The notes beneath the pieces are model-generated. The model had not been told where the DNA came from, made no database searches, and saw nothing but the letters and a program-made list of their open reading frames with translations. From positions 1-42,537 of the IMG/VR virus record IMGVR_UViG_3300022936_000014: a stretch of 42,537 nt of DNA. One strand, written 5' to 3'. The position numbers and the translations under genes were made by a program. This document shows, piece by piece, positions 9,406-21,861 of the stretch (its first letter is position 1; each line of letters begins with the position of its first letter). This stretch comes from a virus (Duplodnaviria > Caudoviricetes).

Positions 9406-9639
9406 CTACTCTATGCATTGATCGCAATAACCAGTATTCTCCTCGTCCTCATGGATTAGCTCTCCACTCTCTGACCACCACCCACAGCCCTTACATTCCT
9501 CCATCCCATAGGTCAGCATTTCATCTTCCCAGTCTATATCTGGGTCTAACTCTAAAAATTCTACAGCACCATGGATAGTGGCGCATGTACCCTCAAGGAA
9601 CTTCGCGAGTTCTTCAACTTTAGCCGATTTATCAATCAT
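9406..9639 (-). CDS. Small acidic CxxC/CxxC zinc-finger protein
   Basis: Probable start ATG 9639 after GAGGA; CKGC..CDQC; the longer track ORF runs through a terminator. Confidence 0.6.
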   Translation of the reverse strand: MIDKSAKVEELAKFLEGTCATIHGAVEFLELDPDIDWEDEMLTYGMEECKGCGWWSESGELIHEDEENTGYCDQCIE

Positions 9640-9655
9640 TATCCCATCCTCGTAT

Positions 9656-9686
9656 GAAAAAGCCCCGCCATTGCTGACAGGGCTTA
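9656..9686 (-). terminator. Intrinsic terminator
   Basis: Minus strand AAGCCCTGTCA-GCAA-TGGCGGGGCTT-TTT; GNRA loop, G-U pairs, U tract. Confidence 0.82.
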
Positions 9687-9693
9687 TAGTATC

Positions 9694-9937
9694 CGGGGGT
9701 GGCGGACCTAATGGTATTTGTCCCAATCAACTGTGGCGCGTGGCTAGCCATGTCATAGCCCTTTGGACTCGCATTCACAATCTGATGTAGGTTACCAGAC
9801 CTACACACTCCACCGTGACCGGCTTACTAATTTATGCGGCTCGCCTAACCATTACCCTCGAATACTACTAGTGGGGCAGGGACAACATGGCTGGCTGAGA
9901 TGCGCCTACATCCGCTTCGGCGCTGAGGAAAGCCCCG
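9694..9937 (-). ncRNA. Candidate structured non-coding RNA of unknown family
   Basis: Intergenic, nested complementary segments closing 5' and 3' ends (see findings), followed by a terminator. Confidence 0.6.
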
Positions 9938-9939
9938 TG

Positions 9940-10236
9940 TTAGTTAGCCGCGTCGATCTGGCGCTTAACGCCACCCTTACGAACGTTATTGTCATGATCC
10001 AATGGATCAGCCTTAGCCTCATAACCAGCAGCACGCTCCCGCGCAAGCTCGTTCTGGCGATCAACGGCAGTCGGCATGTCCGAGGCAGTCACTTCCCCTT
10101 CCTGCTTTTCGGTCCAGGCTTCAAGGGCATTGGCGCGCAGCACAGGGCTGACGTTCTCTGGGAACGTGGTCATGTTGCCCTCGACGTAGCCGGATGCTTC
10201 GAGGTCTTTTAGCTCGTCTTTGGTGAGTTTAGCCAT
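9940..10236 (-). CDS. Hypothetical protein
   Basis: 98 aa, AGGA RBS, DPLDHDNN..KGG motif. Confidence 0.7.
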   Translation of the reverse strand: MAKLTKDELKDLEASGYVEGNMTTFPENVSPVLRANALEAWTEKQEGEVTASDMPTAVDRQNELARERAAGYEAKADPLDHDNNVRKGGVKRQIDAAN

Positions 10237-10757: not shown

Positions 10758-12134
10758 CTACCGTCTCCTCATCCTCATCTGCGGCGCAACTATGCCATCT
10801 TCGTCCGAAACGGGCAAGGGGGTTTCCACCACGGCTGGCGCTCGAATGCCAGCGTTGACCGCAAACTCCCCAAACCCATCTGCAGCATGCGAATGCTCAT
10901 CATGCAGCGGTCCAAGGTAAATCCCAAGGTTTTCGTTCATCTTTCGGCTGTACCGGCGCAGGTGGTTCAAACCTAACACGACCCGTTCAGTCTGGTTAAA
11001 CTCGCACATCGGCAATAGCTGGCGAACAGCGTTGATCCGATCCTCTGGGGCCATAGGCACGCCACGGTTGATCGTACCTAGCGGCACACCCAGGCCATTG
11101 ACCGTCTGGATACGCGTCTTAGCGCCTGCGCCCCATTCTCGCATGCCCACGTCATGAGGGAAGAAATGCCGCTTGTAGCTGTAGCCAATACCCCGATGTA
11201 GCAGCAGAAGCGCCTCTACGCGGTCCTGTACGTCCGCTGTGTACTCCGGCATAGCCGAGGCGACAATCTCCGCCGCACCAAGCCCGCTGGCCTCGTAATA
11301 GTCGATGATCCTGACGCGAGGCACACCATCGGGATAGTACACCTGATAAAACCAGATGACCGTGTAGTCATCGACGCCCAAGTCCCAGGACGTGAACACC
11401 TGACCCAGCGCAGGATCATACGGGAACGCGCCAACCCATCCCTTACGCTCCAGTGCGGCGATATGTTTGGCGAAGTACGCGCCAGCCGTGATGCGCTCGT
11501 AGCCGCCGCCCCATACGTGGTCAGCCATCTCAGGATCGCTGGCGTAGTCCTGGTCTTTCTCAGCCTTCAGTGTGCCGTTGAACCAAGGGTTGTCATGCCA
11601 GTTGATGTTGATGATGATGGCGTCTTTTGGCGGGTTTCCGCCGCGAAAGAACTTGTCCACAGGGTCAGTCTCGAACCGTGGGTTCCATGAGAACCAAATC
11701 TCAGAACCATCCTTACGGATCGTCGGGCGTAGCATCCTTAGCGAGGTCTCGGAGAACGTTTGGGCCTCCTCGACCCATGCTCCATCAAAGTCCTCCAGTG
11801 ATTTAAGGTTTGCAGCGTTGAAGCTCTGCATGCCCTTGAATATGATTATACCACCGTGTGGGCAGCGTATTTCAGCCTCTAGCACCTCAAACTGATCCTC
11901 GACGCCGAACTTGGCAATCTTGTCAATCAGCAGTTGGCGCACGCTTTCACGCAATGACCCCTGCACCTCACGAATGCAAGCAAAGCGCGTCTTGCGCATC
12001 AAGCAGCGCTCTATAAGCTTCTCAGCGAAGAAATGGGATTTGGTGCCACCACGGCCACCGTGCAGAGCTATGTACCGGGCAGGCTCTAGCGCAGGGACAA
12101 GCTTTCGGGGAACGTCGATGACGAGTTCGGTCAT
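10758..12134 (-). CDS. terL: Terminase large subunit (PBSX/Terminase_3-like)
   Basis: Walker A GGRGGTKS, Walker B WVEEAQ, SWNP coupling motif, nuclease WDLG..D and HAADG. Confidence 0.95.
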   Translation of the reverse strand: MTELVIDVPRKLVPALEPARYIALHGGRGGTKSHFFAEKLIERCLMRKTRFACIREVQGSLRESVRQLLIDKIAKFGVEDQFEVLEAEIRCPHGGIIIFKGMQSFNAANLKSLEDFDGAWVEEAQTFSETSLRMLRPTIRKDGSEIWFSWNPRFETDPVDKFFRGGNPPKDAIIININWHDNPWFNGTLKAEKDQDYASDPEMADHVWGGGYERITAGAYFAKHIAALERKGWVGAFPYDPALGQVFTSWDLGVDDYTVIWFYQVYYPDGVPRVRIIDYYEASGLGAAEIVASAMPEYTADVQDRVEALLLLHRGIGYSYKRHFFPHDVGMREWGAGAKTRIQTVNGLGVPLGTINRGVPMAPEDRINAVRQLLPMCEFNQTERVVLGLNHLRRYSRKMNENLGIYLGPLHDEHSHAADGFGEFAVNAGIRAPAVVETPLPVSDEDGIVAPQMRMRRR

Positions 12135-21787: not shown

Positions 21788-21861
21788 TTCCGCTTCGTCT
21801 AATGGTAGGACAGCGCACTTTGAATGCGTCAATCGTGGTTCGATCCCATGAGCGGAAGCCA
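21788..21861 (+). tRNA. trnQ: tRNA-Gln (TTG)
   Basis: Acceptor TTCCGCT/AGCGGAA, D arm, anticodon arm GCGCA-CTTTGAA-TGCGT, T arm CGTGG-TTCGATC-CCATG, encoded CCA. Confidence 0.95.

What the first reader, a model, noticed from the sequence alone, without database searches (positions are those of the whole stretch)
9656..9937. Unrecognised ~245-285 nt structured RNA between terminase and portal
Seen: a gene-free gap with nested pairings: 9694-9698/9933-9937, 9702-9707/9910-9915, 9735-9740/9901-9906, 9743-9753/9885-9895, 9770-9774/9834-9838, 9775-9781/9812-9818, hairpin 9786-9792/9799-9805 and 9849-9854/9869-9874. A minus-strand GNRA terminator follows directly. Wobble pairs are split between strands, so the minus assignment rests mainly on the terminator. 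I do not recognise tRNA, tmRNA, hammerhead, hairpin-ribozyme or group I cores. Inference: a new phage ncRNA; possible roles are packaging-associated RNA, protein decoy, or an attenuator gating read-through to the portal operon.
Basis: partly seen in the sequence, partly recalled or inferred. Interest (0 to 1): 0.85.

Follow-up and report, generated by a model that had tools for sequence, protein, structure and literature searches.

The report
Portable ultraconserved phage RNA hairpin
The gap is not one folded RNA but a row of swappable small RNA modules, one of which is a 54-base hairpin with a nearly fixed 31-base core that recurs in about 125 different places in uncultured phage sequences, matches no family in the RNA catalogue searched, and likely works by binding and blunting a still unidentified host factor.

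Summary
The listed helices are in the sequence, but the 282-nt region folds no better than shuffles (z -0.6 and -1.4), and relatives swap its middle.

The minus-strand gap is an array: clade-conserved module A (9944-9835), private spacers, a hairpin (9782-9729) and a real terminator.

The hairpin's 31-nt core (9770-9740) recurs in 127 distinct contexts, almost all viral contigs of 34-70% GC. Its inner 5-bp stem is Watson-Crick in 127 of 127 across nine stem sequences. Its outer stem covaries, with G-U pairs fixing the minus strand.

Carriers hold one copy (21 of 21), share no partner protein, and lack a Pfam reverse transcriptase match (0 of 50). In 28 of 127 contexts a tRNA lies within 500 nt. 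Six tRNA frames carry the motif in place of the anticodon loop. It is antisense to neighbouring genes in 11 of 47 loci. No Rfam, rRNA, cultured-phage or searched-paper match was found.

Best reading (45%): a trans-acting aptamer or decoy for a conserved host factor. Rivals: self-cleaving ribozyme (20%), cis element (12%). Function is untested, and one large candidate catalogue could not be searched.

The parts
9729..9782 (-). Motif hairpin: variable outer stem P1 closing the conserved core
   Evidence: Model R1 match, 63.9 bits (the window is in the model's training set). P1 covariation across 126 distinct rows.
9740..9770 (-). 31-nt core: G1-C31 pair, 9-nt/1-nt internal loop, 5-bp stem P2 (9760-9756 with 9746-9742), 9-nt apical loop
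   Evidence: 127 contexts. This copy differs from the commonest core by one compensatory pair, 9756/9746.
9835..9944 (-). Module A: clade-restricted conserved non-coding element of about 110 nt, with a local stem-loop; function unknown
   Evidence: 92-100% identical in L001, L005, L042, L206, L220. 0 of 117 changes against 31 of 292 in the adjacent gene in run X5. Folding z +0.19.
9783..9834 (-).
   Evidence: Replaced by unrelated sequence in the relatives examined. z -1.86.
9687..9728 (-). Module D: private spacer
   Evidence: Not found in relatives. z -0.11.
9657..9685 (-). Intrinsic terminator-like hairpin, 11 bp with GCAA loop and U tract
   Evidence: z -4.7. Conserved in L001, L005, L042, L206 and run X4.
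9940..10236 (-). 98-aa conserved gene of unknown function that anchors the array upstream
   Evidence: Homologues in 8 viral loci. tRNAs follow it in L004.
9406..9639 (-). 77-aa phrog_2855 gene after the terminator, replaced or absent in relatives

Best explanation
The gap is a minus-strand array of exchangeable small RNA modules ending in a terminator, and its key member is a 54-nt hairpin whose fixed 31-nt core likely forms a binding surface that would act in trans on a conserved host factor, most likely an anti-phage protein or signal molecule. SHOWN: the modular layout; the two-stem fold; near-invariance of the core across unrelated phages; one copy per genome; no shared partner protein; display on tRNA bodies and on other repeated stems. 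INFERRED: transcription on the late message that ends at the 9657 terminator; local co-transcriptional folding, with module A closing its own stem first; release or stabilisation by the host scaffold; binding as the function; a defence-related partner. A 3-pair pseudoknot (G3-C24, C5-G23, C6-G22) is possible but shows no covariation.
For: (1) Fold: P2 is Watson-Crick at all 5 pairs in 127 of 127 contexts. All 21 contexts with a changed stem that only the stem-free pattern could find are perfectly complementary. 256 cells change on both sides against 93 in shuffles, 0 of 500. (2) Core positions left free by a scan stay fixed: 5, 6, 22, 23, 24 in 106 of 106 genuine hits's type. (3) Context independence: PHROG-matched neighbours are head genes in 20 loci and replication or nucleic-acid genes in 19; the motif is antisense to them in 11 of 47 loci. 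(4) A tRNA lies within 500 nt in 28 of 127 contexts against 0 of 133 controls, 84 of 85 on the same strand. (5) Six tRNA frames with different acceptor stems carry it instead of an anticodon loop, and another phage group carries it on a long stem that is repeated with other inserts (read by eye). Display on a stabilising frame fits a binder. (6) One copy in 21 of 21 genomes, the most widely shared protein cluster is in only 7 of 21, and RVT_1 matches 0 of 50 records, so the partner is probably not phage-encoded. (7) It is dispensable: absent from 8 of 9 related records, including 2 of 3 near-complete ones.
Against: No ligand or target was identified. No host RNA that it could mimic was found: rRNA of one host is no better than shuffles, and there is no genuine hit in 400 sampled genomes. 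A defence role is an analogy, not a result. Nearest-neighbour folding does not favour P2 in this copy (probability 0.37; above 0.5 in only 49 of 127), so tertiary contacts or a partner must be assumed. Promoter-like sites upstream are not significantly enriched (17 against 8 of 122, p 0.09). Core positions 7-10, 16 and 20 and all loop lengths were forced by every scan, so their invariance is not shown.
Confidence: 0.45

Rival explanations
1. The hairpin is a new class of small self-cleaving or processing ribozyme that cuts polycistronic tRNA and late transcripts.
For: Host-independent chemistry would explain the invariance and the lack of a partner protein. It lies among tRNAs, as theta ribozymes do (PMC10879173, abstract). 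A hammerhead-like match lies about 1 kb away in L327.
Against: No match to any Rfam ribozyme, even at E-value up to 1. The core is closed by P1, so a cut would only nick it. Distances to flanking tRNAs vary from about 18 to 80 nt. Mounting it in an anticodon arm or among swappable inserts has no clear processing purpose.
Confidence: 0.2
2. It acts in cis on its own transcript, as an antiterminator, a nuclease block or an attenuator gating read-through to the portal operon.
For: It is sense to its neighbours in 35 of 47 loci. The 5' end of module A (9937-9930) can pair with the 5' arm of the terminator, and both are kept in relatives (sequence).
Against: It is antisense in 11 of 47 loci, has no fixed downstream gene class, and occurs inside tRNA bodies. 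A promoter-like element at 9404-9376 is conserved in L001, L005, L042 and L206 downstream of the terminator (my reading, not called by the scanner).
Confidence: 0.12
3. One reading: one RNA of about 250-285 nt folds through the long helix between module A and the motif, possibly as a switch that masks the motif.
For: The helix is 11 bp, and only 7 of 399 control stretches reach that length. It is possible wherever A and the motif co-occur: window, L005 and run X18. It is isoenergetic with the motif fold in the window.
Against: The whole-region z is not significant. Module A occurs without the motif in L001, L042, L206 and X4, and the motif occurs without A in about 125 contexts. In L005 the modular fold is the minimum (-102.0 against -97.3). 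Duplex energy is ordinary (44 of 133 controls as good). The helix was picked after the fact from a 42-kb window.
Confidence: 0.08
4. The motif is a DNA-level site, such as a single-stranded DNA hairpin or a recombination or protein-binding site.
For: It occurs once per genome, is nearly invariant, and lies in either orientation.
Against: G-U bias towards one strand and co-orientation with 84 of 85 tRNAs; insertion in anticodon arms of tRNA frames, two of them ending in CCA; no RT match.
Confidence: 0.07
5. It is a packaging RNA, like phi29 pRNA, with the internal-loop and apical-loop bases pairing between copies.
For: It lies near head genes in 20 of 47 annotated loci. The two loops carry complementary invariant bases.
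Against: It is absent at this site in L001 (portal 97% identical) and from near-complete relatives G459 and G460. The carriers have different portal families.
Confidence: 0.05

Closest known systems
RNA anti-CRISPRs (Racrs; PMC10651486) and pseudo-ToxI repeats (PMC3475682); I saw the search listing and start of the abstract only
   Same: Small phage-encoded RNAs that act in trans without a phage protein and blunt a host system.
   Different: Those copy an identifiable host RNA (a CRISPR repeat or ToxI) and track one host system. No host template was found for this core, and it recurs nearly unchanged in contigs of 34-70% GC.
Theta (minimal HDV-like) ribozymes of phage tRNA arrays (PMC10879173; abstract and outline)
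   Same: Small structured RNA next to phage tRNAs, on the same strand.
   Different: No HDV-type nested double pseudoknot (fold recalled), no fixed position at the tRNA end, and it also sits inside tRNA bodies.
UG27 RT ncRNA arrays (10.64898/2026.09.22.753630; sections 9 and 10 read)
   Same: Phage arrays of structured RNA units that are gained and lost between close relatives.
   Different: UG27 units are about 150 nt, diverse in sequence and tied to an RT plus two proteins. Here the core is fixed and no RVT_1 match was found in 50 records.
Engineered tRNA-scaffold aptamers, and T4 species 1 and 2 RNAs (recalled; one listing seen, PMC7590224)
   Same: A foreign RNA domain displayed from the anticodon stem; small stable RNAs inside phage tRNA clusters.
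   Different: This is natural and was apparently recruited more than once. The T4 RNAs were not compared directly, but no cultured phage record matched the core.
Riboswitch aptamer domains (recalled)
   Same: A compact two-stem fold with many invariant unpaired bases.
   Different: No expression platform, no consistent downstream gene and no Rfam match.

Membership tests
Any Rfam 15 family | Covariance-model match at the gathering score over the element | tested here: not met
   Window; 20 motif loci at gathering; 16 and 15 loci at E up to 1. The only overlap is one sub-threshold flavivirus stem-loop hit in L365 (E 0.24).
Self-cleaving ribozymes (hammerhead, HDV/theta, twister, pistol, hatchet, hairpin) | Known catalytic core and topology | tested here: not met
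   No Rfam ribozyme model overlaps the motif. The consensus has only two supported stems.
Self-cleaving ribozymes | Site-specific self-scission | not testable with these tools
   Needs an in vitro assay.
Racr / pseudo-ToxI mimics | Sequence copies a host CRISPR repeat or antitoxin RNA | tested here: not met
   No Rfam CRISPR-repeat or ToxI hit. The core is single-copy in 5 GTDB genomes, in phage-like contexts for four. No genuine hit in 400 sampled genomes.
Racr / pseudo-ToxI mimics | Inhibits a defence system in trans | not testable with these tools
   Needs a plaque assay.
Retron, DRT or UG27 template RNA | Cognate reverse transcriptase in the locus or genome | tested here: not met
   PF00078 in 0 of 50 records, 31 of them at least 90% complete. 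A very divergent RT could be missed.
Riboswitch | Consistent 5'-UTR position before functionally related genes | tested here: not met
   Mixed neighbours and 11 of 47 antisense.
Packaging RNA (phi29 pRNA kind) | Conserved in all relatives with the same motor | tested here: not met
   Absent from 8 of 9 related records; 6 of the 9 are fragments.
tRNA, tmRNA, 6S or rRNA fragment | ARAGORN or Rfam call, or similarity to rRNA | tested here: not met
Candidate structured RNAs of Fremin et al. 2023 (PMC10690425) | Present among their alignments | tested here: inconclusive
   No hit in the four readable files. The zip and PDF files that probably hold the alignments could not be read.

The most novel reading that the evidence does not exclude
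Phages carry arrays of plug-in RNA aptamers mounted on tRNA bodies and repeated stems, and this 31-nt core is an all-RNA sponge for a universal immune signal or defence protein: the RNA counterpart of protein sponges such as Acb4.
Probability: 0.2. Interest if true: 0.93.

Novelty: new variant of a known kind. Interest (0 to 1): 0.72.

Why it matters
A 31-nt RNA core kept almost unchanged in about 125 contexts of mostly unrelated phages, while its closing stem has turned over completely, is under selection as strong as a riboswitch or ribozyme core, yet it has no gene to regulate and no phage partner. It is small enough to synthesise, so self-cleavage, ligand and pull-down tests are immediate. 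Either outcome, a new ribozyme class or a natural trans-acting aptamer, would be notable. It also offers a handle on the question of what the non-tRNA inserts in phage tRNA regions do, and suggests that some are portable payloads.

Tried and rejected
SEARCHES THAT FOUND NOTHING USEFUL
- Blastn of the gap against cultured phages gave only 28-32-nt terminator matches. The motif had no credible match in phages or plasmids.
- Patterns for module A found only close relatives plus chance hits in viral and metagenome contigs (one search stopped at 36 of 64 parts) and none in GTDB.
- Similarity or complementarity to 16S and 23S rRNA was no better than shuffles (one genome, 16S partial).
- Literature: the exact core in DNA or RNA spelling is in 0 papers. 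Topic searches showed nothing on this motif. The supplement of PMC5737381 could not be read. The 'GUCCY-hairpin' of PMC2864571 was seen only as a table row and could not be compared. VIPR (abstract and outline only) needs GGY/NN repeats, which are not here.

EXPRESSION
No RNA holder was listed for this stretch. Two runs of one study, guessed to be RNA, hold other copies of the motif in short contigs (depth 155, 98, 34 and 11). Contigs cannot show level or ends, so this is not counted as evidence.

IDEAS REJECTED
- Alternative core pairings (2-6 with 10-14; 3-5 with 17-19) break in the variants.
- An antisense partner near other copies of the motif is not enriched.
- Promoter and terminator enrichment around the motif is not significant.
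- 6S, RNase P, tmRNA, group I or II intron and twister resemblances came from memory and were not supported by Rfam.

AN ERROR OF MINE
The constrained energy of -87.7 used coordinates off by one. One search replaces it.

Full report
Setting. The window is a 42.5-kb tailed phage genome. Its portal is about 44% identical to those of Brucella phages. The gap 9640-9939 lies on the minus-strand late region, after terminase and three small ORFs and before two small ORFs and the portal. Rfam and ARAGORN find only one tRNA, far away at 21788.

The eight pairings exist, but the 282-nt region is not more stable than shuffles: z -0.62 on plus and -1.36 on minus. The terminator hairpin is real (z -4.7).

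Relatives show modules. Relatives found through the portal, the 98-aa gene and DNA patterns keep module A (9944-9835) and the terminator but replace what lies between. The inserts are 110 nt in L001, 94 nt in L042 and L206, and a tRNA-Val-like stretch plus the motif in L005 (my reading). Run X4 has a shorter insert without the motif, and X18 joins A to the motif with 14 letters. More distant relatives have tRNAs at this site (L004). Module A is more conserved than the gene beside it (0 of 117 against 31 of 292 changes in X5, p 3e-5) but has no folding signal and too little variation for a structure. One short stem has two alleles that both keep the pairing.

The motif and how it was counted. 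An 18-letter pattern from 9740-9770 hit 32 viral stretches; I estimated 3-4 by chance. All 32 extend into the same 31-nt core with unrelated flanks. Two further scans freed parts of the core: 58 stretches and 119 (stopped at 58 of 64 parts). GTDB gave 5. After collapsing identical 12-nt flanks and leaving out hits within 12 nt of a locus end, 131 contexts remained. I dropped 4 as chance (9 or more changes, no outer stem), leaving 127. Some of these come from related phages, so they are not 127 independent events.

The fold. The inner stem P2 is Watson-Crick at all five pairs in 127 of 127. Twenty-five contexts use one of eight other stem sequences, and 21 of these could only come from the scan that left the stem free. 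The window's own two differences are one compensatory pair. The first three variable pairs of the outer stem P1 give 291 Watson-Crick, 50 G-U, 15 A-C and 25 other. The tool count on 126 distinct rows gives 94% paired cells against 81% in shuffles, and 256 double changes against 93; that control does not correct for kinship. Positions 2, 4, 18, 19 and 21 tolerate change. G3, C5, C6 and G22, G23, C24 are nearly invariant and complementary but show no covariation, and by my estimate the geometry next to P1 would be tight. Positions 7-10, 16 and 20 and the loop lengths were forced by all scans.

Context. A tRNA lies within 500 nt in 28 of 127 contexts (27 had shorter flanks) against 0 of 133 control stretches; the controls are chance pattern hits and were not matched for being intergenic. 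Of 85 such tRNAs, 84 are on the motif strand. Six contexts have D- and T-arms around the motif, which replaces the anticodon loop; ARAGORN with inserts finds seven, five of them the same. About ten further contexts mount it on a long stem, which in L361, L399 and L365 is repeated with other inserts (by eye). I scanned 144 of 192 flanking ORFs; 61 matched PHROGs in 47 loci. Head genes occur in 20 loci and replication or nucleic-acid genes in 19, and the motif is sense in 35, antisense in 11 and mixed in 1.

Partners. In 21 genomes (20 fetched, two cut at 60 kb, plus the window) there is one copy each, and the most widely shared protein cluster covers 7. RVT_1 matched 0 of 50 records; one of the 50, L387, was a chance hit. 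In 400 sampled genomes of the phylum of G001 there were two other matches, both without P2, against four for the reversed control pattern. Of 9 related records only L005 has the motif; six are fragments, but L001 and L042 span the site.

The long helix. The 11-bp pairing between module A and the core is longer than in 392 of 399 controls, but its duplex energy is ordinary (44 of 133 controls as good), and it would destroy both P2 and the local stem of A. It is isoenergetic with the motif fold in the window (-98.2 against -98.1) and 4.7 kcal/mol worse in L005. I read it as an alternative fold and cannot exclude a masking switch.

Mechanism. A portable, single-copy, dispensable RNA with a fixed core, no phage partner, no fixed neighbour or orientation, and repeated mounting on stabilising frames fits a trans-acting binder best (0.45). 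That its partner belongs to host defence is inferred from Racr and pseudo-ToxI precedents (listings and abstract starts); no partner was found. A new self-cleaving ribozyme remains open (0.2), as the same invariance would follow from chemistry.

Novelty. There is no Rfam match over the motif, no cultured phage or plasmid match, no paper with the core, and no look-alike among earlier findings of this scan. The alignments of the 10,000 viral candidates of PMC10690425, which covers DNA viruses and phages, could not be read, so the motif may be listed there uncharacterised. bioRxiv supplements were closed.

Papers seen: sections 9-10 and the abstract of the UG27 preprint; abstract and outline of the VIPR preprint and of PMC10879173; passages of PMC5737381, PMC2864571 and PMC4604425; searches in four supplement files of PMC10690425; listings for the rest.

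Verdict. The real finding is a small, strongly supported, uncatalogued phage RNA motif inside a swappable RNA array; its function is a testable inference. Interest 0.72.

Noticed in passing
L220:1366-1439 and L004:4283-4356: A shared 74-nt element with a covarying stem and a hairpin loop complementary to a downstream CCCUC. By eye it has three stems, a pseudoknot and a GU junction, resembling a circularly permuted pistol ribozyme (features from PMC4604425 passages). No Rfam hit.
   Followed up: partly
L361, L399, L360, L365, L366, L439, L281, L295, L240, L264, L237, around the motif: A conserved long stem, repeated up to four times in L361 with different inserts, carries the motif as one payload. 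It may be an RNase III-cut display array (inference).
   Followed up: partly
L361, L399, L360, L365, within 500 nt of the motif: A second recurring small element: a hairpin with a GUUAGCG loop in a variable stem, followed by a CUGCUUUAUG tract. Not in the Rfam scan.
   Followed up: no
L005:3805-3905 and L005:4025-4095: Two degenerate tRNA-like elements flank module A: one with an enlarged anticodon loop, one Val-like with an altered T-loop. Neither is called by ARAGORN.
   Followed up: partly
L004:2739-2805 and L006:2884-2950: A tRNA-Gly-like gene with a reduced D-arm directly after the 98-aa gene (weak tRNA hit).
   Followed up: no
window 9404-9376 (-): A promoter-like element conserved in L001, L005, L042 and L206 ahead of the 85-aa gene and portal, downstream of a variable gene slot. 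It is weak against the E. coli consensus.
   Followed up: partly
window 9937-9930 and 9685-9678 (-): The 5' end of module A repeats the 3' arm of the terminator and could pair with its 5' arm, as a possible antiterminator or a relic half-terminator.
   Followed up: no
window 10758-12134 versus L001, L005, L042: Close relatives share the ends of the large terminase but carry a different terminase sequence between them, which suggests a gene swap.
   Followed up: no
run X3, window 9738-9772: One soil DNA run holds several contigs with the motif and different flanks, plus a 35-nt contig at depth 104, so many carriers coexist in one sample.
   Followed up: no
window 21788-21861 (+): A single tRNA-Gln(UUG) gene.
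   Followed up: no
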